A model generated the notes under the pieces. It was not told the DNA's origin. It was given only the letters and a program-made list of their open reading frames with translations, and ran no database searches. A stretch of DNA of 64,000 bases. It comes from a virus. Its lineage: Duplodnaviria > Caudoviricetes. The translations under genes and the position numbers were made by a program. Positions 41,026 through 59,300 of the stretch are shown here, piece by piece. Positions within the stretch are counted from its first letter, which is position 1, and every line of letters starts with the position of its first letter. The stretch lies in the IMG/VR virus record IMGVR_UViG_2585427684_000001, positions 6,736 to 70,735 of that record; one strand, given 5' to 3'.

Positions 41026-41526
41026 TTAGCTTCGGTTTTTTTCAGCTTCTATTGCCATTTCCATGTAAATCATGAATGCGTCTAGTTGTTTTGATATGCT
41101 GTGGTTGGCAGAGGTATTGGTGCGAAATATATGACTTGCTCTCTTTAGTATTTCTCTGCTATACCCGAGATTCATTTCCTTTTCATAACTGTAGAGCGAG
41201 TCATAAAATTCCTGAGCACTTTTAGAATTAGGCTGTGCAATGGACTCGTAAGCTTTTTGAAAGTACGCGATCGCCTTTTCTGTTCTGTCGCTTTGAGGTA
41301 AAGTCTTTATTTTCAAAATTATATTGCTAAGGGTGATGACTGAGTCATTTGCGAGATCTCGGTTTTGTGCCGCTATTCCTAAAGCATTCTCGTAGTTCGA
41401 TCGAATTTCTCTTTTTTTTTCTCTCCAGCCTCGCCAAGCGTACCCAACAATGCTAAATGCACAGCCAGCAACAAGGCCGTATGTTATGTTTACGATTTCC
41501 GCTACATCTAGTTGAATGCTCATCAT
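41026..41526 (-). CDS. AT-rich hypothetical protein, N-terminal TM plus helical domain
   Basis: 166 aa; ITYGLVAGCAFSIVGYAW; low GC. Confidence 0.75.
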   Translation of the reverse strand: MMSIQLDVAEIVNITYGLVAGCAFSIVGYAWRGWREKKREIRSNYENALGIAAQNRDLANDSVITLSNIILKIKTLPQSDRTEKAIAYFQKAYESIAQPNSKSAQEFYDSLYSYEKEMNLGYSREILKRASHIFRTNTSANHSISKQLDAFMIYMEMAIEAEKNRS

Positions 41527-41753
41527 GGCTTCTCTTGTCAGTCTGGTTGCCTAGTGCAGCTGTTGACAACATCAGTCAGGTGAGTTCCGTTGTCTGAAAA
41601 ATGCGCACTGATATTTAGAGTGCTCCTGCATCGAATCCGCTTCTGCCGCTCTGGGCAAGGCAGTCATCTGCGCTGCGATGATGCTCTCCGACCCGCTCCT
41701 AGGACTGATGCTGGAGCGGGCGGGCTGGTGCTAAAGGGGGCTGACAATCGTAA

Positions 41754-43022
41754 TCAATTGGCGAAAATGTCACCCCAACGAATGTAGAAAAGCAAATACG
41801 GATCTCGAATATCCAGCACCTCACTTTCATTGTCCCATTCGATGATATTGGCGTTTGCAGAGTCATTCGCGATTTTTGCGATATGGCTACAGGCGCCAGT
41901 AATACTTGAGCCGCTCGGGGAGGAACCGTTACACAGAGCTCTCACACCAGCAGTAAGATCATCGTACCGCAACGTAAGTCGAGGGGGATCGTTGGCCAAG
42001 CAACGCATAATCAACGAGTAGACATCACCCTGCTGACCGTCTTTAAGTATGTATCTGATCCTGTCTGAGCCGCGTACTCGTGGACCTTCCAACATTTTTT
42101 CAACAGTAGAGCTGTAGTCCGCTGAAAGCACTGCCCTTCGACATATGTTTTCGAAGGAGTTCGCGGCGAACAGCAGATTAGTTCCAGCAGGCTGTTGCTC
42201 TCGCATGTCATGTTCAAAGCAAGCATTAAGGCACAACTGCTGCATGAGCTGCGGAGACCCTGCTGCTTGCTCAGCAAAACTATTTGAAAGCTGGTCGTCA
42301 TGCTTGATGCCTAAAGCATTGAAACCTAGTTCAGCGATTTTTTTTAGATTTTCTCGGTTCCAGTAGCTGAAATCAATGTTAACTATGCGTCCGCGAAGAT
42401 CTGGATTGCCTCTGACTACATCGTCGGAGTGGTAAGGGACAGATGCCACGATAAAGGTAACGCCTTGGCGGATTGCCTCTTTAATCTGGCGCGCAATTTC
42501 TGTTTGAGTGTTACGAGATATGTAGTGGAAATCGTCAATAAAAATCACGAAGTCCAGCTCTTTTAGGGTGTTGATGAGTATTTGAAGATAATCGGTGGGC
42601 CGATCAAATGTAAGGGTTTCACCTTGCGCATTTTGATGCGATGCTGAGCCTTCTGCCCCAGCTTTTGCGAAGATCAATGAGCCGCTCGCGGAGAGCTTCA
42701 CTGTAAATCCATTTGTTGAATTGGCGGAAGAGCTTCTGGAAGTTGGGATGTCAATCCCAAGTTGGTCGAAGATACGGGTCCATAGAATTCCTATCGAATC
42801 TATGCCAGCTCCAGTGACCTGAATGATCTTCTCTTTGCCCAGGCTTTGCTCAACAAAGACAGTCTTACCTGACTTCGATGGGCCAGAAATCGATATCAAC
42901 ATCGTGCCTGTATCAATCGTATCGTGGAGCACCTGATGCTTGGCTGTCAGGTGATCGTTGACGAAGGTGTAGCTAGGAAAGCCCCCGGGGGTAAAAATGT
43001 CCTTGGCTTTTAACATGTCCAT
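41754..43022 (-). CDS. P-loop ATPase (STAND/AAA+-like), no obvious effector domain
   Basis: GPSKSGKT, IFIDDFH, GRI, GSPQLMQ; low GC. Confidence 0.85.
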   Translation of the reverse strand: MDMLKAKDIFTPGGFPSYTFVNDHLTAKHQVLHDTIDTGTMLISISGPSKSGKTVFVEQSLGKEKIIQVTGAGIDSIGILWTRIFDQLGIDIPTSRSSSANSTNGFTVKLSASGSLIFAKAGAEGSASHQNAQGETLTFDRPTDYLQILINTLKELDFVIFIDDFHYISRNTQTEIARQIKEAIRQGVTFIVASVPYHSDDVVRGNPDLRGRIVNIDFSYWNRENLKKIAELGFNALGIKHDDQLSNSFAEQAAGSPQLMQQLCLNACFEHDMREQQPAGTNLLFAANSFENICRRAVLSADYSSTVEKMLEGPRVRGSDRIRYILKDGQQGDVYSLIMRCLANDPPRLTLRYDDLTAGVRALCNGSSPSGSSITGACSHIAKIANDSANANIIEWDNESEVLDIRDPYLLFYIRWGDIFAN

Positions 43023-43572: not shown

Positions 43573-43588
43573 TATGGAGGCCCCGCCA

Positions 43589-43954
43589 ATGAACACCACC
43601 CTTGACTTCGAAATCGACGATCTGCCCTTGCTCAGCCTGGACGATCTAATGCAAATCCGTGCGCCCTGGACCTATCTGGTCAAGATCGAGGGCGAAAGCA
43701 TGCAGGGTATTGGGATGTACTCCGGCGACCTGCTGGTCGTTGATCGAAGCATCGAGGCCAAGCACGGCGACATCGTGATTGCGGCGGTGAACGGTGAGCC
43801 GACCTGCAAGCGCATGTGCCGTGAGCACGGTGTGCTGGTCCTGCGATCGGAGAACCCCAAGTACCCGTCTCGGTACATCATGGAGGGGGATACGTTCGAG
43901 GTGTGGGGTGTGGTCCGGTTTAGCGTCCGGGATCACGATCATGGAGCGAGGTAG
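43589..43954 (+). CDS. umuD: UmuD/RulA-like S24 peptidase lacking the N-terminal cleavage arm
   Basis: GESM, GDLLVVDRS, TCKR, VWGVV; RBS GGAGG. Confidence 0.8.
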   Translation: MNTTLDFEIDDLPLLSLDDLMQIRAPWTYLVKIEGESMQGIGMYSGDLLVVDRSIEAKHGDIVIAAVNGEPTCKRMCREHGVLVLRSENPKYPSRYIMEGDTFEVWGVVRFSVRDHDHGAR

Positions 43955-44599: not shown

Positions 44600-44968
44600 T
44601 TGATATCTCCTGAATGAGCGGTAACGCTATAGCGACTTCAGCGCGGTGTCTAGTGGCGTTCGGTCGCGCCCAAAATCGATTCCAAACTGAAAGGTCCACC
44701 CCTGCTGTATGCGGTCTGTAGCCAAGCTGTTTCGTATTTGTTTTGGAATCTATTTTCGCCGCCGGCACCACTTGTGGCTGGAGCTTATGCCACAGTCTTT
44801 AAACTCGTTAAGCCAAACCGATGCGTTTGGTCATCCTCTGGTAGGCGACTTGAGTTCTGCCTCTTGCGAAATGCTGCTTTCGACCTCATAGCTGCCCTTC
44901 ATGAAGGGCAGGCAACGAAAGGAAACGGTATCGAGCGCCAGGCTATAGCGTCCACGTTAACCCAACAG

Positions 44969-45589
44969 TTATGCATTCTTTGCCAAATTTTGAATTGTTG
45001 GATTTGAAATCGCATGTCGTACAGCAGACCAAAATATTTCTGGACTAAATGGCGTTCGATCATAAGGATATGTATCATCTCCATTTCCGCCTAATACAAG
45101 TGGGGCTTCGCATGACGATTCACTGAGGGCCACAAAGGTTACGGCAGATTCAGAGAGCTTTACCACGCTCTGATGAAAAACTCCGCGCTCAACAAAATAT
45201 TGCTCGCCTGCGATACGCATTTTCGAGGTGTGTTTCGATATTCTGGTTTTCATGTCTGTTCTTGTAATTTCAGAGTCGCCGTTGAAATATGTTACTTTAT
45301 ATATGGAGAAGTCTTTTCCGTCGATTAGCTCGCACTGGATGTCCTCAATATTTCCGTGTAGAACAAGGCTAGATAAAGCGTATGAGTGTGTGTGCACGGG
45401 CCAGTCCGGGTTTTTGGTGCGCCGTTCATTCGGTGGCCAGTAATGCACGCGTAATGTGACACTGCCGGGATTGTCTCGTATCACACAGGAGACAAATCCG
45501 AGTGGGTGCCAAAAAGGTTGAATGCTAGCCGCAAGCGTATCTATATTTTGTAGGAGAAAATTTATATTATCGAGGGCATTAGTTTTCAT
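44969..45589 (-). CDS. Cupin-fold protein (HxH...H, thiol-dioxygenase-like)
   Basis: WHPLGF, LRVHYW, VHTHS..VLHG, GEQY..GVFHQS. Confidence 0.75.
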   Translation of the reverse strand: MKTNALDNINFLLQNIDTLAASIQPFWHPLGFVSCVIRDNPGSVTLRVHYWPPNERRTKNPDWPVHTHSYALSSLVLHGNIEDIQCELIDGKDFSIYKVTYFNGDSEITRTDMKTRISKHTSKMRIAGEQYFVERGVFHQSVVKLSESAVTFVALSESSCEAPLVLGGNGDDTYPYDRTPFSPEIFWSAVRHAISNPTIQNLAKNA

Positions 45590-46466
45590 AAGGATTTTTC
45601 GATGTCTTACATGCTGTGGCGATTACCTGAGCGGTTACTTGCTTGCAAATGTCCCCTAGTCCAGCTGTTGCTAACACACTCTCTACATCATTTAAATCAA
45701 TCTCGGCGAGCTGAATTCCATGCCGCATACCACCCAGATTAATCTTTCTGGCTTGATCACGCGCTGTTTGCATTTGGAGATTGAAGTGATTCGCCGTAAA
45801 ATGCTTCTGGGTAATCATTAAAGCAGGGCTTCGGCGATCCTCTACGGTTAAAATCATCGCTTCGTCGCTGCCGTCAATGCGGATGGGGTCGAATTTCCTA
45901 GAAAGGAATATGTTTATATCCATTCCTTTGTTTCTTACGTACCACGCCGCGATAACAATGGTCACCATCACCTCAAGTGAAACAGTCGCAGAGTCGTACT
46001 TCTTGCCTTTGTCAATAGCATTGATATTTCCCCTATATTCTGCGTGCCTTGCACAAAGCTCTTGATTGGCCGGGTCAATTAGGCAAACAAGGACCTGAAC
46101 ATTGGTTTTAGATGCCAGTGCGGGCAGTACTTTTCCTCTAAGGTAGCGGCCAAAGTTCCCTTGATATCTCCAGCGGGTAGCGGAATCTAACAGTTTCTCA
46201 AACTCGGCTGTAATCTCTTGTGCGGGAATTTCGATTATCTCTCCTTTTTCCTTGCTTGGGACGAAAGGGACTATTATCAATAGTCCAAATAGCGCGGTTA
46301 TAAGGGCTGAGGCAATCGACTTTACTTGATCAAGAATTACATCACTAAATGGCTGTCCAAGTTGGTAGTGTGCGATAAATAATGATATCAAATATATAGA
46401 AACCAGGAGTGCGACAAAAGTTTTTTTGTGATGCCGCGGTAGGTTGAGTATTTTATCTGCGTCCAT
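45579..46466 (-). CDS. 2TM membrane protein with PLD-like/DUF5919-like cytosolic domain
   Basis: Two N-terminal TM helices; WRYQGNFGRYLR..VLVCLIDP..INIF..DEAMILT; 11-nt overlap with the cupin gene. Confidence 0.7.
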   Translation of the reverse strand: MDADKILNLPRHHKKTFVALLVSIYLISLFIAHYQLGQPFSDVILDQVKSIASALITALFGLLIIVPFVPSKEKGEIIEIPAQEITAEFEKLLDSATRWRYQGNFGRYLRGKVLPALASKTNVQVLVCLIDPANQELCARHAEYRGNINAIDKGKKYDSATVSLEVMVTIVIAAWYVRNKGMDINIFLSRKFDPIRIDGSDEAMILTVEDRRSPALMITQKHFTANHFNLQMQTARDQARKINLGGMRHGIQLAEIDLNDVESVLATAGLGDICKQVTAQVIATACKTSKNPYEN

Positions 46467-47161: not shown

Positions 47162-47480
47162 TTAGGCCCTCTCGTCAGTTCTGGGCCAATTTTGGGCCAT
47201 TTCGACTCGGGGCGGCAGCTTCTCCAGCTCCCTCCAGTCCAAGGAGGAGCTGATCCATTTCGCGTAGGTAGAGAGCTACATCTCGACGCTGTAGCCGAGC
47301 TGGCTCGCGATGAACGCGGGGTTCATCCCAGACATCAGGCACATGGTTGCGTAGGTGTGGCGGGTGTCGTACTGACGGCGTTCACGGATGTTCAGCGCCT
47401 TCAGCGCCGATTTGAAGTGGCGGATTGTAACACTTGGCTCGTTGATCCACAGCCCACCTTTGCTAGGTTGGAACACGAAG
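47162..47480 (-). pseudogene. Tyrosine integrase C-terminal fragment
   Basis: RQYDTRHTYAT..AFIASQLGYSVEM*LSTYAKW (in-frame TAG). Confidence 0.85.
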
Positions 47481-47489
47481 GGACTGGTT

Positions 47490-47872
47490 GGTGCTGACCA
47501 GCACTTGGGCTTCGTTTCACTTGAAGATCAGGATTCCCTCAGGTTCCAGTACACGGAAACGCTCGGCAAAGTCTTGGGGGATATCCTCCCGCCATTCACT
47601 GGTGAGCACTCTGTACATTGCCCGCATCCAGCGAGCCACGTCGGCCCGGGTCAGATGCGGCGGATCGAACACGACCAAGCGCAAAGCGGCGTCCCCAAGG
47701 GCAGACTCCGAAAGTCCATCAGCACATCTGGCTCAACCTTCAGTATCCGGCTGTCGCATCGCTGGTGTTCGTCGTCGCGGATGTCGCCGAACAGGGCGCG
47801 CTGGTCTTCCTTGTCGAACCACATCATGCGGCGGGCACTGCATGTGTCGAGCGGTTCAACCGCTGCGCTCAT
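47490..47872 (-). pseudogene. Phage SAM-dependent methyltransferase pseudogene
   Basis: RMMWFDKEDQRALFGDIR..PDVLMDFRSLP, frameshift, VVFDPPHL..LIFK*NE. Confidence 0.82.
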
Positions 47873-48136
47873 CGCGGCCCCCTGCAAATCAGGTAGGCCA
47901 TGTACATCAGGGCTAGGGTCATAGAAGGTGTCCTCCGGCATACCGCAGGGCGTCACGATCTTGTCGAAGCTAATCGCGCGCTTTGATCAGGCCTTGATTG
48001 CGGTTGAAATGTTGCGGTGCTCCAACTCGAGGGTAATGGCAACGCATATAATGCGTCAGGATCACCTCGCCCGGCTTCTGGCCGAGCCAAACCCGCCTGG
48101 AACGGCATCACGCCGGCCGGGCTATGACTCAGGGAA

Positions 48137-51199: not shown

Positions 51200-51351
51200 T
51201 GGGGAATTTCTAACGCCGCCTATCCCTAGGCGGCGTTTTTCGTTTGGGTGCTGGCGGGCAGCGCCGCAGGGTTAGGCGGCAGCGCGAACTACGAAGCTCA
51301 GGATGGCAGTGGCGTCGTCGTTGAAACACTCGGCCAGGTTTTGATACGTCC

Positions 51352-51495
51352 GATCCTTCGAGTTTTTCCAGCTTGCTCCAGTCGGAGCTTGGGTTGAGCC
51401 AACGGCATAGGTCGATATCAGCATGTAAACGCTGTGACCCAGCTGTTGGGCTATGAATGCGGGACTTAGAACAGAGGCAGTCGGCGTATGGCCTG
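51352..51495 (-). pseudogene. Second integrase C-terminal fragment
   Basis: PAFIAQQLGHSVYMLISTY, frameshift, RWLNPSSDWSKLEKL. Confidence 0.75.
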
Positions 51496-51987
51496 GCGAA
51501 CTGGATAGCACGTAAAGCCTGGTCGTTCAGCAGCACACAAGTCCCTTTCTGTCTTCGTTCCTTCCTCTATCTTGCTTAGGGCGACTCTCCTTATGACTTG
51601 CTGCATCCTCTTCTGCAGATTGATCACATCCCATCGGCTGGCATGACGTCTATCGGTACATTAGCTACGTCTTTAATCTTACTGCGCTGCGAGAGGGCGA
51701 GAGTCGCAAAGAATGCGCCATCTGACTGAAGTGCAGCGCACACGCCGACCTCGTGGGAAGTCATTGCGCGTTGCTCGCTCAAGTTGATCCTCCTTGAGCA
51801 TCCAAGCCCAAGTCCATGGGCTTTCCAGCAACGGACCGGGGCGGGTCGTTGGGAGACAACGCTACGACGGCATGAGGCCGTACGGTTACGGGTGGTGCGT
51901 CCAGGGGGATAGGTGGTCATCCTTGGAAGTCTGTGCAGGATTGCCTTAGAGTTTGCGCTTTACTCAAGCCTTCAAAGGAATGACTCC

Positions 51988-56426: not shown

Positions 56427-56777
56427 ATGCCCATTCAGCCGCCTATTTTCTTTAAATGCCTTGGTGACGAAACCCGCGCCCGGATCATGCTCATGCTCGC
56501 AGCTGAGGGTGAGCTGTGCGTCTGTGAACTGATTTGGGCACTCGACGACAGCCAGCCGAAGATCTCACGCCACCTGGCTCAGCTTCGTACCTGCGGGCTG
56601 CTGGAGGACCGTCGGCAGGGCCAATGGGTTTACTACCGTCTTCATCCGGAACTGCCTCTATGGGCACTGGATGTACTTCAGGCGACGCTCGAGGCTAACC
56701 GCACTTGGCTCGGTGATGACCAAGGTCGCCTTGCTTCCATGGAAGGTCGCCCGGTACGCCAGGTTTCCTGTTGCTAA
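56427..56777 (+). CDS. arsR: Arsenic-responsive repressor
   Basis: [20 protein letters not shown]; terminal CC. Confidence 0.95.
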
Positions 56778-56796
56778 GTGTTATTGGAGACCCGAG

Positions 56797-58086
56797 ATGT
56801 TGCTGGCAGTGTCTATTTTTCTGGTAACGCTGGTACTGGTGATCTGGCAACCCCGAGGGCTTGGCGTGGGTTGGAGTGCGTCTGCCGGAGCGGTGGTCGC
56901 GTTGCTAACTGGCGTTGTTGCGCTCAGTGATATCCCGGTGGTCTGGCACATTGTGTGGAACGCAACGGCGACGTTCATTGCGGTGATCATCATCAGCCTC
57001 CTGCTGGATGAGGCAGGCTTTTTCGAGTGGGTAGCGCTTCATGTGGCTCGTTGGGGGAGAGGCAGCGGGGCACGCCTGTTTGCACTAATGGTACTCTTGG
57101 GTGCAGCTGTCTCGGCCCTGTTTGCTAATGATGGCGCAGCATTGATTCTGACCCCCATTGTCATCGCAATGCTTACGGCGCTGCGCTTTAGCCCGGCAGC
57201 AACCTTGGCTTTCGTGATGGCTGCCGGCTTCATTGCCGACACTGCCAGCTTGCCGCTGGTTGTCTCGAACCTTGTGAACATCGTCTCTGCCGATTTTTTC
57301 GACATCGGATTTGGTCAGTACGCCTCGATTATGTGGCCGGTGAATCTGGCCAGTGTCGGGGCGACGCTAGGCATGCTTTGGTTGTTTTATCGAAAAGAGG
57401 TACCGCTGGCGTACTCACCCGAAGAACTACCGCGACCAGAAGAGGCCATCAAGGATCGCCATACGTTCATTGCTGGCTGGTGGGTGTTGCTGCATCTGCT
57501 AGTCGGTTTGTTCGCCCTTGAGCCCCTAGGCATACCGATCAGTGCTGTCGCCGCTGTATGCGCACTGGTGTTGCTGATAATTGCCGCGAAAGGGCATGTG
57601 ATCTCGACCCGCAAAGTCATGCTCAACGCACCCTGGCAGGTCGTATTGTTTTCACTTGGCATGTATCTGGTGATCTACGGCCTGAAGAATGCAGGGCTGA
57701 CAGAAGGACTCGGCTCATTGTTCGGCACCTTCGCCGATCATGGTCTGTGGGTTGCGACACTCGGCACCGGTTTCACGGCTGCGCTGCTGTCATCTGTCAT
57801 GAACAACATGCCCAGCGTGCTGATTGGTGCCTTGTCGATTCAGGACAGTGGCGCGACGGGGCTCGCCCACGAAGCCATGGTGTACGCCAACATCATCGGC
57901 TGCGACCTTGGCCCCAAGATAACCCCCATCGGTAGTCTGGCGACGCTGCTGTGGCTGCATGTCCTGGCTCAGAAAAACATCCGCATCACTTGGGGTTACT
58001 ACTTCAAGGTTGGCTGCGTAATCACTTTCCCCATTCTGCTGCTGACACTGGCAGCGCTTGCCGTGCGCTTGAGCATCAGCACGTAG
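56797..58086 (+). CDS. arsB: Arsenite efflux pump
   Basis: 429 aa; [31 protein letters not shown]. Confidence 0.97.
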
Positions 58087-58095
58087 GAGTAACTT

Positions 58096-58566
58096 ATGAA
58101 GATGCTGTTCATGTGTACGGCCAATAGCTGTCGCAGCGTCCTGTCCGAAGGACTGTTCAACCATGTTGCGCCGGACGGCTTCACGGCCATCAGTTCGGGC
58201 AGCCTCCCCAGCGGCAAACTCAATCCCCGTGCGGTGAGCACGCTGCAAGGACTGGGTGTCGACACGTCCGCCCTTTATAGCAAGGGATCAGAAGCGTTCG
58301 AGGACTCGCCACCCGATATCGTGATCACTGTGTGCGACAAGGCAAGTAGCGAAGCCTGTCCGGTGTATTTTGGCCCGGCCATCAAGAGCCACTGGGGGCT
58401 GCCTGACCCATCGGAAGTGGATGGCAGCGACGAGGCTATTCAGGTCGCATTCGACGCAACGGTTGAACACATCAAAAGGCGGTTCGCAGCGTTATTCGCG
58501 TTGGATCTGAAGACACTTCAAGGCGACGACCTGAAGCAGGCTTTGGATCGGATTGGAGCATTGTGA
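58096..58566 (+). CDS. arsC: Arsenate reductase (LMW-PTP/thioredoxin type)
   Basis: [22 protein letters not shown]. Confidence 0.93.
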
Positions 58567-59300
58567 TGAACGAGTTCGATATCGACTCTGCCGAGGCCTT
58601 TCCTGCCCTCGATCTGTTGCTGATGGATCTGCCCACTGCCGATAAGCTTAACCTGGCTGATGCGTCGAACGTCAAACCACGCATCCTTCTGCTCTATGGA
58701 TCGACCAGAGAGCGTTCGTTCAGTCGTCTCTTGACGCAAGAGGCCGCTAGACTGCTCCAGTACATGGGCGCCGAGACGGTGATTTTCGATCCGTCAGGTT
58801 TGCCCTTGCCGGATGACGCGCCAGTCGAACACCCGAAGGTACAAGAGCTGCGTAATCTGGTGCTGTGGTCAGACGGACAGGTATGGTGTTCCCCCGAGCG
58901 TCATGGCGCTATGTCCGGGGTATTCAAAGCGCAGATCGATTGGATTCCTTTGACCCTGGGTGCCGTGCGGCCCACCCAAGGCAAAACACTCGCGGTGATG
59001 CAGGTGTGCGGCGGGTCTCAGTCATTCAACGCTGTGAACCAGATGCGTGTGTTAGGTCGATGGATGCGCATGCTGACCATCCCGAATCAGTCGTCCGTGC
59101 CGAAGGCGTATCTGGAGTTCGACGATGCTGGCCGAATGAAACCTTCGCCGTATTATGACCGCGTGGTCGATGTGATGGAGGAACTGGTGAAGTTCACGCT
59201 GCTGGTTCGTGGCCGTGAGGGCTATTTGGTAGATCGATATTCGGAGCGAAAAGAAAGCGCTGAAGCTCTATCGGCCAGGATAAATCAACGCTCCATCTAG
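58563..59300 (+). CDS. arsH: NADPH-dependent FMN reductase ArsH
   Basis: [29 protein letters not shown]. Confidence 0.96.

What the first reader, a model, noticed from the sequence alone, without database searches (positions are those of the whole stretch)
44969..46466. Coupled pair: 2TM/PLD-like protein and a 3-His cupin; candidate new defence or signalling system
Seen: two strongly AT-rich genes overlap by 11 nt. The first has two N-terminal TM helices and an alpha/beta domain with a G..R..R / LxDP / R.D..D pattern resembling HKD-less PLD/DUF5919 ligand-binding folds. The second has HxH...H cupin metal ligands. The pair lies between two prophage elements. Known: 2TM-plus-sensor proteins are typical effectors of nucleotide-signal anti-phage systems, and a cupin is not a standard partner in the systems I know. 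Inference: the cupin makes or modifies a small-molecule signal, such as an oxidised nucleotide or thiol, that gates a membrane effector.
Basis: partly seen in the sequence, partly recalled or inferred. Interest (0 to 1): 0.72.

Follow-up and report, generated by a model that had tools for sequence, protein, structure and literature searches.

The report
Membrane pseudo-PLD protein plus cupin pair
Two overlapping genes in the cargo end of a Pseudomonas prophage encode a membrane protein with an inactive-looking phospholipase-D fold and a five-histidine metal-binding cupin; the two always travel together, often beside known phage-defence genes, so they are a well-supported but untested candidate for a new bacterial immune or exclusion module.

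Summary
Gene A (45579-46466, minus, 295 aa) and gene B (44969-45589, minus, 206 aa) overlap by 11 nt and are low-GC (42-46% against 55-60%). A has two N-terminal TM helices and a confident PLD fold (Z 11-12.5) without an HKD motif. B is a cupin with an HxH...H site plus two more invariant histidines.

Neither matches Pfam, NCBIfam or PADLOC.

B follows A in every intact locus examined, from Proteobacteria to Chloroflexota and Actinomycetota, down to about 20% identity. Two natural A-B fusion proteins exist.

The cassette is rare and patchy. It sits at prophage ends, integrases, transposases, plasmids and a conjugative element, and close to PARIS, Lamassu, Shedu and OLD-type ATPases. Five or six contexts look purely chromosomal.

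Best reading: an autonomous mobile two-protein membrane complex, most likely anti-phage or anti-MGE (about 0.45). Its claim that the pair lies between two prophages is only half right.

No TIR-swapped relative was found here. Two distant variants link the cupin to Tmk-type kinases.

This scan had already flagged the same kind of pair on other genomes (e1-3855086, e1-3855087).

The parts
45579..46466 (-). Gene A: 295-aa inner-membrane protein (2TM hairpin + cytoplasmic HKD-less PLD-fold domain + small helical C-terminal region + invariant NPYEN tail)
   Evidence: ORF. 167+ homologs at E<=1e-3 and 635 clusters at 50% identity in a profile search. AF2 pLDDT 87.6. No Pfam, NCBIfam, PADLOC or PHROG hit.
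46263..46436 (-). Two TM helices (residues 11-36 and 40-68). The basic N-terminus (RHHKK) suggests both termini are cytoplasmic.
   Evidence: AF2 helices. A hydropathy scan found 2 TM segments in 134 of 148 top family representatives. The topology is inferred from the positive-inside rule.
45732..46250 (-). PLD-fold domain (residues 73-245) with family-wide G103, G106, R110, P132, R145, T169, R196, D198, T207 and A215, and no HxK...D motif
   Evidence: Foldseek E 1e-5 to TrmBL2, PssA and Nuc. VIA Z 12.5 SauUSI, 11.8 TrmB, 11.4 Nuc, 11.3-11.4 FAM83. Conservation.
45582..45695 (-). C-terminal helical region (258-287) and N-P-Y-E-N tail. P292 and Y293 are conserved in over 90% of a 19-55% identity family alignment, and the motif is retained in fusion protein P0212.
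45579..45589 (-). 11-nt overlap. B's ATG lies inside A's P-Y-E codons (CCnTATGAr), which points to translational coupling.
   Evidence: The same junction occurs in all 17 intact loci from five phyla or classes.
44969..45589 (-). Gene B: 206-aa cytoplasmic cupin with an N-terminal helix, a jelly-roll barrel and C-terminal helices
   Evidence: ORF. AF2 pLDDT 94.2. Cupin matches, best to B. subtilis cysteine dioxygenase at Z 10.4 in a flat list. 190 homologs at E<=1e-3 with a profile.
45386..45394 (-). H66-T-H68, cupin motif-1 metal ligands
   Evidence: Invariant in 14/14 sequences, including Actinomycetota, fusion proteins and the Vibrio relative.
45173..45175 (-). H139, cupin motif-2 metal ligand. 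H28 and H49 are two further invariant histidines.
44893..44910 (-). Perfect 18-nt palindrome about 60 nt after B's stop. It may be a terminator stem or a binding site, but has no T-run.
   Evidence: Read from the sequence. The consensus terminator scan did not call it.

Best explanation
A and B form an autonomous, horizontally mobile two-gene module whose products work as one membrane-tethered complex. A is anchored in the inner membrane by a 2TM hairpin. It presents to the cytoplasm a PLD-fold domain that has lost the HKD catalytic motif but keeps a conserved Gly-rich loop and three invariant arginines (R110, R145, R196), with D198 and T207. This looks like an anion- or phosphate-ligand pocket rather than a phosphodiesterase site. 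B is a cytoplasmic mononuclear-metal cupin with a 3-His site and two extra invariant histidines. It is made in step with A through the overlapping start codon and is, I infer, bound to A's cytoplasmic part. The module is carried as cargo by prophages, integrative elements, plasmids and IS-flanked islands. Its most likely role is defence of the host or its element against phages or competing elements. In that role B would be the catalytic or sensing subunit, and A would be the ligand-binding membrane output, acting by membrane damage or exclusion at the membrane. What is shown: the folds, the conserved residues, obligate pairing, fusions, mobility and defence-gene neighbourhoods. What is inferred: physical binding, topology, the ligand pocket and the defence function.
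For: Pairing. B lies directly after A in 17/17 intact loci, with the same ATG-in-NPYE overlap. Distant pairs of 19-31% identity occur on Rhodococcus, Methylobacterium and Nonomuraea replicons. In 400 random Pseudomonadota species, all three confident cupin hits have an A-family gene overlapping upstream.

Fusions. P0212 (514 aa) and P0324 (505 aa) are A-B fusions.

Co-divergence. The A and B identity matrices correlate at r=0.83, Mantel p<=2e-4.

Folds and motifs..

Mobility and rarity. The A profile hit 1/400 Gammaproteobacteria species and 11 loci in a pattern scan of about 185,000 species genomes. The pair is low-GC in the window. One copy is cut by an IS and one is pseudogenised.

Context. 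Window: prophage cargo beside a PDC-S59-type ATPase. Kineobactrum: PARIS AriA/AriB two genes away. Methylophilaceae: Lamassu directly downstream. P. chlororaphis: two Shedu genes and an integrase fragment. P. syringae and Halomonas: OLD/AriA-type ATPases. Alcaligenes: conjugative element with an Nhi-like helicase. P. fulva: next to the integrase of a small prophage or satellite. Others: transposases or plasmids.
Against: There is no functional data of any kind. The defence association is anecdotal: about 16 of 22 contexts carry MGE or defence markers, with no formal background rate. Five or six loci (L006, L014, L016, L017, L027, perhaps L025) lie among housekeeping or metabolic genes with no MGE marker. 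Neither protein hits PADLOC, and no close relative was found in IMG/VR viral contigs or GenBank phages. The cupin fold list is flat (Z 8-10.4), so no chemistry can be assigned. Mapping A's conserved residues onto the HKD site rests on secondary-structure register, not on a residue-level structural alignment.
Confidence: 0.45

Rival explanations
1. The cupin is an enzyme that makes or modifies a diffusible small molecule, such as an oxidised nucleotide or thiol. That molecule binds the pseudo-PLD domain and gates a lethal 2TM membrane effector. This would be a signal-plus-effector abortive-infection system analogous to CBASS or Pycsar, with a new signal chemistry.
For: The PLD-fold domain keeps a conserved Arg-rich, Gly-loop pocket although the catalytic HKD is gone. 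TrmB shows that this fold can be a pure ligand-binding domain. The cupin metal site is invariant. Two distant variants link the cupin to Tmk-family nucleotide kinases: L038 carries HTH-Tmk-A-B, and L022 carries cupin-tmk-pyrF. Very distant 2TM-PLD-like proteins sit beside HD_5 or radical-SAM-like plus NUDIX genes instead of a cupin.
Against: A diffusible signal does not require strict 1:1 coupling. Natural A-B fusions and the conserved overlap fit a stable complex better than a generator with a separate receptor. No cyclase or nucleotidyltransferase is present. No toxicity or ligand is shown. The Tmk and Chloroflexota links are few and distant.
Confidence: 0.15
2. A toxin-antitoxin or addiction-type module. 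The 2TM protein is a membrane toxin held in check by the cupin (or the reverse), and its main role is to stabilise the mobile element that carries it. Any phage effect would be secondary.
For: It is a two-gene, translationally coupled, mobile cassette on plasmids, an ICE and prophage ends. On both plasmids it is followed by a serine recombinase. One copy is IS-disrupted and one is decayed, as is often seen for addiction modules.
Against: Both proteins are large, with elaborately conserved catalytic or ligand-type residues. That is unusual for a simple antitoxin. Fusion of a toxin to its antitoxin is atypical for type II TA. No DNA-binding autoregulator is present in the core pair.
Confidence: 0.15
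3. A non-immune accessory function. This could be a membrane-associated redox, thiol, metal or nucleotide-modifying enzyme complex, or a lipid head-group modifying or sensing pair. Such a pair would help the host under some environmental stress and would be spread horizontally like many niche genes.
For: The best, though tied, structural neighbours of B are thiol dioxygenases, which are the hits that align from residue 1: B. subtilis CDO Z 10.4, mercaptosuccinate dioxygenase 8.8, ergothioneine dioxygenase 8.6 and rat CDO 8.2. The PLD fold also includes phospholipid synthases (PssA Z 9.8). Several loci lie among metabolic genes. ars operons lie near the pair in the window and in L040.
Against: No conserved metabolic neighbour exists, and the flanks differ in every locus. 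The very low prevalence and the frequent defence and MGE neighbours are not what a metabolic trait usually shows. Pfam's CDO_I and PCO_ADO HMMs do not match B.
Confidence: 0.2

Closest known systems
Single-domain PLD-superfamily proteins and pseudo-PLDs: Nuc (1byr), NucT, SauUSI nuclease domain (7clg), TrmB sugar-binding domain (2f5t/3qph), FAM83 DUF1669 (4urj, 5lzk)
   Same: Same alpha/beta PLD fold over residues about 73-245 (Z 11-12.5, rmsd 2.3-2.7 A, 126-149 aligned). Like TrmB and FAM83, it lacks the HKD catalytic motif.
   Different: Sequence identity is only 4-13%. It has an N-terminal 2TM anchor and its own conserved motif set (GxxGRxxR, IDP, RxDxxD, TVEDR, C-terminal NPY). It has an obligate cupin partner. 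No nuclease or lipase residues are present.
3-His thiol dioxygenase cupins (B. subtilis CDO YubC 3eqe/4qm9; mercaptosuccinate, ergothioneine and 3-mercaptopropionate dioxygenases; ADO/PCO)
   Same: Cupin barrel with HxH...H and no acidic fourth ligand, plus an N-terminal helix packed on the barrel. These are the top Foldseek and VIA hits (E 1.4e-6; Z 10.4).
   Different: The hit list is flat, with many unrelated cupins at Z 9-10. Pfam's CDO_I and PCO_ADO HMMs do not match. B has two extra invariant histidines (H28, H49) and a C-terminal helical extension. No substrate is known.
Two-gene defence systems with a TM effector plus an enzyme (Pycsar PycC+PycTM, CBASS with 2TM/4TM effectors)
   Same: Small mobile operon. 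One protein has an N-terminal TM module fused to a putative ligand-binding domain and the other is an enzyme-like protein. The setting is a defence island or prophage cargo region.
   Different: There is no cyclase or CD-NTase. The partner is a metal cupin. The sensor-like domain is a pseudo-PLD rather than cNMP-binding, SAVED or STING. Natural fusions suggest a stable complex. The function is untested.
Pfam DUF5919 (PF19319)
   Same: A language-model neighbour cluster (score 0.92) has DUF5919 on 23% of its members.
   Different: hmmscan of A, and of the Rhodococcus and Methylobacterium relatives, against Pfam gives no DUF5919 hit at E<=0.05-0.1.

Membership tests
PLD superfamily (HKD phosphodiesterases) | PLD alpha/beta fold | tested here: met
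   VIA Z 11-12.5 to SauUSI, TrmB, Nuc, NucT and FAM83 over residues 73-245. Foldseek E 1e-5 to 3e-4.
PLD superfamily (HKD phosphodiesterases) | HxK(x4)D catalytic motif | tested here: not met
   No HxK...D is present in A or in the family consensus. By secondary-structure register, the strand pair that carries HKD in Nuc reads R196-I-D198...D201. That register is my inference, not a residue-level superposition.
Pfam DUF5919 (PF19319) | Match to the family HMM above the gathering score | tested here: not met
   No Pfam family at E<=0.1 for A or at E<=0.05 for distant relatives. There is only an Atlas feature lead: score 0.92, 23% of one cluster.
Cupin superfamily | Double-stranded beta-helix barrel | tested here: met
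   AF2 pLDDT 94.2. 134 PDB matches at E<=1e-3, all cupins. Z 8-10.4 to 50 cupin representatives.
Cupin superfamily | Motif 1 HxH and motif 2 H metal ligands | tested here: met
   H66, H68 and H139 are invariant in 14/14 diverse sequences. Metal binding itself is not testable here.
Thiol dioxygenases (Pfam CDO_I PF05995 / PCO_ADO PF07847) | Match to the family HMM | tested here: not met
   No Pfam hit for B at E<=0.1. PF05995 is not found in the record. Atlas similarity is only 0.76.
Thiol dioxygenases (Pfam CDO_I PF05995 / PCO_ADO PF07847) | 3-His iron site without a carboxylate ligand, plus substrate-binding Arg/Tyr | tested here: inconclusive
   The 3-His pattern is present and no acidic residue lies 4 residues after H68. 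The equivalence of R47 and Y131 to the CDO Arg and Tyr could not be checked, because model coordinates and residue-level alignments were not available.
Known or candidate anti-phage systems in PADLOC-DB v2.0.0 | HMM match of either protein to a catalogued system component | tested here: not met
   0 families for A and for B at E<=0.1.
CBASS/Pycsar-type signalling defence | Nucleotide cyclase or CD-NTase signal generator in the operon | tested here: not met
   The conserved unit is only A+B and the neighbours vary in every locus. No cyclase family was seen.
Defence-island gene family (guilt by association) | Frequent location next to known defence systems | tested here: inconclusive
   PARIS, Lamassu, Shedu x2, OLD/AriA-like ATPases, an Nhi-like helicase and PDC-S59 lie within about 8 kb in 7 of about 22 contexts. 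MGE markers occur in about 9 more. No background rate was computed.

The most novel reading that the evidence does not exclude
The pair is a new class of immune module. A metal-dependent cupin oxygenase creates or destroys a small phosphorylated ligand, possibly a modified deoxynucleotide given the Tmk links. That ligand is read by a catalytically dead PLD-fold domain, which then switches a 2TM membrane effector. This signalling chemistry and sensor fold have not been seen in any described defence system.
Probability: 0.15. Interest if true: 0.85.

Novelty: new variant of a known kind. Interest (0 to 1): 0.58.

Why it matters
If the pair is a defence or exclusion system, it would add a metal cupin and a pseudo-PLD sensor to the short list of protein folds used in bacterial immunity. 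It would also give a function to a family with over 600 sequence clusters and no annotation. The module has only two genes, is strictly coupled and occurs in cultivable Pseudomonas and Acinetobacter strains, so it is easy to test. Related cupins of unknown function also occur in phages, which might point to counter-measures. If it turns out to be a TA module or a metabolic module, it is still an unnamed, widely transferred family worth a Pfam entry.

Tried and rejected
Family scans. Pfam, NCBIfam, PHROGs and PADLOC gave nothing for A. For B the only result was a weak phrog_4784 hit of unknown function, E 0.0024.

PDB sequence profiles. Profiles of A1, A2 and A4 gave only chance hits.

Viral and phage collections. 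IMG/VR viral contigs with both profiles gave no relatives. GenBank phages gave no tblastn hit for B and no megablast hit for the 40.7-47.6 kb cargo region.

TIR-swap lead. Earlier scan notes say that TIR-fused versions of the PLD-fold domain pair with the cupin. I saw no TIR or other non-TM N-terminal module. I looked in the top 150 of 635 family representatives, where 134 of 148 have 2 TM segments. I also looked in 400 Chloroflexota, 400 Gammaproteobacteria and 400 Pseudomonadota species genomes.

Literature. Searches for cupin with anti-phage, defence island or abortive infection, and for DUF5919, found nothing on this pair.

CDO control. The attempt to fetch CDO control sequences for a profile-profile test gave no loci.

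Integrase fragments. The 47276-47476 fragment could not be matched to PDB or to the P. syringae integrase, but it was confirmed against phage JBD44. The second supposed fragment (51272-51511) was not confirmed.
Full report
**What is in the sequence**

On the minus strand, ORF A (45579-46466, 295 aa) and ORF B (44969-45589, 206 aa) overlap by 11 nt. GC is 0.42-0.46 over the pair and 0.55-0.60 on both sides. Neither protein matches Pfam, NCBIfam or PADLOC. The only PHROG signal is a weak hit of B to phrog_4784, a family of unknown function, at E 0.0024.

**Protein A**

An AlphaFold2 model built on 31 homologs is confident (pLDDT 87.6). Its parts are:
- two long hydrophobic helices (11-36 and 40-68);
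- an alpha/beta domain (about 73-245);
- a small helical C-terminal region (258-287);
- an invariant N-P-Y-E-N end.

The basic N-terminus (RHHKK) suggests that both termini and the globular domain are cytoplasmic. This is an inference from the positive-inside rule.

Foldseek and VIA-align both place the globular domain in the PLD fold. Z-scores are SauUSI nuclease domain 12.5, TrmB 11.7-11.8, Nuc 11.4, FAM83 pseudo-PLD 11.3-11.4 and NucT 11.3.

There is no HxK...D motif. The residues that stay nearly invariant across a 66-sequence alignment at 19-55% identity are G103, G106, R110, P132, R145, T169, R196, D198, T207, A215, P292 and Y293.

By secondary-structure register, R196-x-D198 sits where Nuc has H-x-K. 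I read this as a conserved anion-binding pocket rather than a phosphodiesterase site. It is an inference, because I had no residue-level superposition.

**Protein B**

The model is very confident (pLDDT 94.2) and is a cupin barrel with an N-terminal helix and two C-terminal helices.

In 14 sequences that include Actinomycetota, Alphaproteobacteria, a Vibrio relative and the cupin halves of two fusion proteins, five histidines are invariant: H28, H49, H66, H68 and H139. So are G31, F32, W51, S74, G79, S106 and G128.

H66-x-H68 and H139 are the classical cupin ligands, and no acidic fourth ligand is present.

The best PDB neighbours are thiol dioxygenases, and they are the hits that also align the N-terminal helix:
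- B. subtilis CDO: Foldseek E 1.4e-6, Z 10.4
- mercaptosuccinate dioxygenase: Z 8.8
- ergothioneine dioxygenase: Z 8.6
- rat CDO: Z 8.2

The list is flat, however, with dozens of unrelated cupins at Z 9-10. Pfam's CDO_I and PCO_ADO HMMs do not match. So B is a 3-His cupin of unassigned chemistry, not a demonstrated thiol dioxygenase.

Phage proteins of unknown function are somewhat better structural matches, with TM-scores of 0.5-0.63: Caulobacter phage CcrBL9 and Burkholderia phage BcepNazgul.

**The pair is one unit**

- *Synteny.* In 17 of 17 intact loci, B follows A, and B's ATG lies inside A's P-Y-E codons (CCnTATGAr). The loci come from Pseudomonas, Acinetobacter, Halomonas, Kineobactrum, Methylophilaceae, several Alphaproteobacteria, a Chloroflexi MAG and others.
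- *Damaged copies.* One further copy is truncated by an IS3-type insertion, and one has frameshifts in both genes.
- *Distant pairs.* Pairs at 19-31% identity, again overlapping, lie on the Rhodococcus opacus plasmid pCP135, a Methylobacterium plasmid and the Nonomuraea replicon.
- *Unbiased sample.* A cupin profile run on 400 evenly sampled Pseudomonadota species found four new hits. The three confident ones each have an A-family gene overlapping upstream.
- *Fusions.* Two representatives of the A family are natural A-B fusions: P0212 (514 aa) and P0324 (505 aa), with hhalign 99.2% and 99.6% to the cupin profile. P0212 keeps the NPYE motif in-frame, so that motif is not only a by-product of the overlapping start.
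- *Co-divergence.* The A and B pairwise identity matrices correlate at r 0.83, Mantel p <= 2e-4. Shared ancestry alone could give this result, but it argues against partner swapping.

I therefore regard co-function as established and physical association as likely.

**Distribution and context**

The wider A family has 635 clusters at 50% identity with E <= 1e-3. In a hydropathy scan, 134 of the top 148 have two TM segments.

The family is nevertheless rare and patchy:
- 11 loci in a pattern scan of about 185,000 species genomes;
- 1 of 400 Gammaproteobacteria species with the close profile;
- 4 of 401 Chloroflexota with the broad profile.

No gene other than A and B is conserved around it.

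The window itself is an IMG/VR provirus record. To the left are tail genes, a DUF2514 spanin and a Dam methylase. Next come low-GC cargo genes, including a PDC-S59-type ATPase and an S24 peptidase. The pair follows, and then a C-terminal integrase fragment 80% identical to the phage JBD44 integrase. Further right are LprI, GNAT and ars genes, which is not a second prophage.

| Locus | Organism or replicon | Setting |
|---|---|---|
| L001 | P. fulva | Beside the integrase of a small prophage or satellite |
| L002 | P. syringae | Integrase and an OLD/AriA-type ATPase |
| L003 | Kineobactrum | PARIS AriA/AriB two genes away |
| L013 | Methylophilaceae | Lamassu LmuA/LmuB directly downstream |
| L024 | P. 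chlororaphis | Integrase fragment and two Shedu genes |
| L008 | Halomonas | AriA/OLD-like ATPase |
| L026 | Alcaligenes | Conjugative element with an Nhi-like helicase |
| L007, L011, L018 | metagenome contig; Acidobacteriota MAG; gammaproteobacterial MAG | Transposases |
| L019, L023 | Rhodococcus, Methylobacterium | Plasmids |
| L006, L014, L016, L017, L027, perhaps L025 | various | Ordinary chromosomal genes only |

In all, about 16 of 22 contexts carry MGE or defence markers. This is suggestive, but I computed no background rate.

**Hints about chemistry (weak)**

- L038 is a low-GC four-gene insert in a distant branch. It reads HTH, then a Tmk-family kinase, then A, then B.
- On a Vibrio lentus plasmid, a B-like cupin (hhalign 95.9%) overlaps tmk and pyrF, and there is no A gene.
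- Very distant 2TM-PLD-like proteins in Chloroflexota lack a cupin. They sit beside an HD_5 protein, or beside a radical-SAM-like gene plus a NUDIX gene.

Together these point loosely toward nucleotides, in line with the Arg-rich pocket. They are few and distant.

**Interpretation**

I commit to the following reading. A and B are a mobile two-protein membrane complex, most likely an anti-phage or anti-MGE module (0.45). The cupin is the catalytic or sensing subunit and the 2TM pseudo-PLD protein is the membrane output.

It fits the fusions and the strict 1:1 coupling less well than a stable complex does. The other rivals are a toxin-antitoxin or addiction role (0.15) and a non-immune redox, thiol, nucleotide or lipid function (0.20).

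**Relation to earlier scan notes**

The scan had already described the same kind of pair on other genomes (e1-3855086, e1-3855087). My independent tests agree with those notes on fold, five-histidine cupin, pairing and context.

Other notes claim TIR-fused versions of the PLD-fold domain with the same cupin (e1-2329489, e1-721801). I could not find such forms in the searches available to me, so that lead remains untested. I did see a radical-SAM-like neighbour of one very distant relative.

**Novelty**

The pair is not in Pfam, PADLOC or the literature I could search. In logic it resembles known TM-effector defence pairs, so I class it as a new variant of a known kind. There is a modest chance that it is a truly new signalling chemistry.

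Noticed in passing
window 41026-43022 (-): A low-GC 422-aa AAA/STAND-like ATPase matches the PADLOC candidate PDC-S59 (E 4.7e-32) and phrog_6841. It is followed by a 166-aa TM protein. This is a separate cargo module in the same prophage end (also noted as e1-5887519).
   Followed up: partly
window 43574-43954 (+): A 126-aa Peptidase_S24 (UmuD/LexA-type) protein stands alone between the two cargo modules (Pfam E 4.6e-23).
   Followed up: no
window 47276-47476 (-): A 66-aa ORF is 80% identical to the C-terminus of the Pseudomonas phage JBD44 site-specific integrase. It is a truncated integrase remnant just upstream of gene A. ORFs at 47517-47956 look like decayed DNA methyltransferase pieces (they contain 'VFDPPH'). 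I did not check this.
   Followed up: partly
L038 6601-9500 (G864:C1): A four-gene low-GC insert (31-38% against 56-63%) reads XRE/HigA-like HTH, Tmk-family kinase, A-family protein, B-family cupin, and is tightly packed. This variant of the pair has a nucleotide kinase.
   Followed up: partly
L022 4809-6937 (Vibrio lentus plasmid p1): A B-like five-His cupin (235 aa) overlaps tmk and is followed by pyrF. A second pyrF, a PLP aminotransferase and a glycosyltransferase lie nearby, and there is no A gene. This looks like a nucleotide-modification cluster.
   Followed up: partly
L030 1060-2112 and L031 1456-2580 (Chloroflexota): Distant 2TM, coiled-coil, PLD-like proteins (E 1e-12 and 1e-10 to the family profile) have no cupin. 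One is beside an HD_5 protein. The other is overlapped by a radical-SAM-like gene and followed by a NUDIX gene.
   Followed up: partly
P0254 (601 aa): A tandem A-A fusion, (2TM + PLD-like) x 2, in one polypeptide. It is compatible with the PLD-like domain working as a dimer, as single-domain PLD enzymes do.
   Followed up: no
L019 7727-8329 and L023 5925-6527: On both the Rhodococcus and the Methylobacterium plasmids, the distant pair is followed by a roughly 200-aa serine recombinase gene. The three genes may move together.
   Followed up: no
L039 1555-3279 and 5514-6587 (G1184:C1): Near another distant pair there is a 574-aa protein with an OLD/GajA-type N-terminus and a low-GC 357-aa protein with a PIN-like N-terminus. 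I identified both by eye only.
   Followed up: no
window 56671-59300 and L040 1403-4758: ars operon genes lie within about 10 kb of the pair both in the window (ArsB and a FMN_red protein of ArsH type) and in an unrelated genome that carries a distant pair. This is probably coincidence.
   Followed up: no
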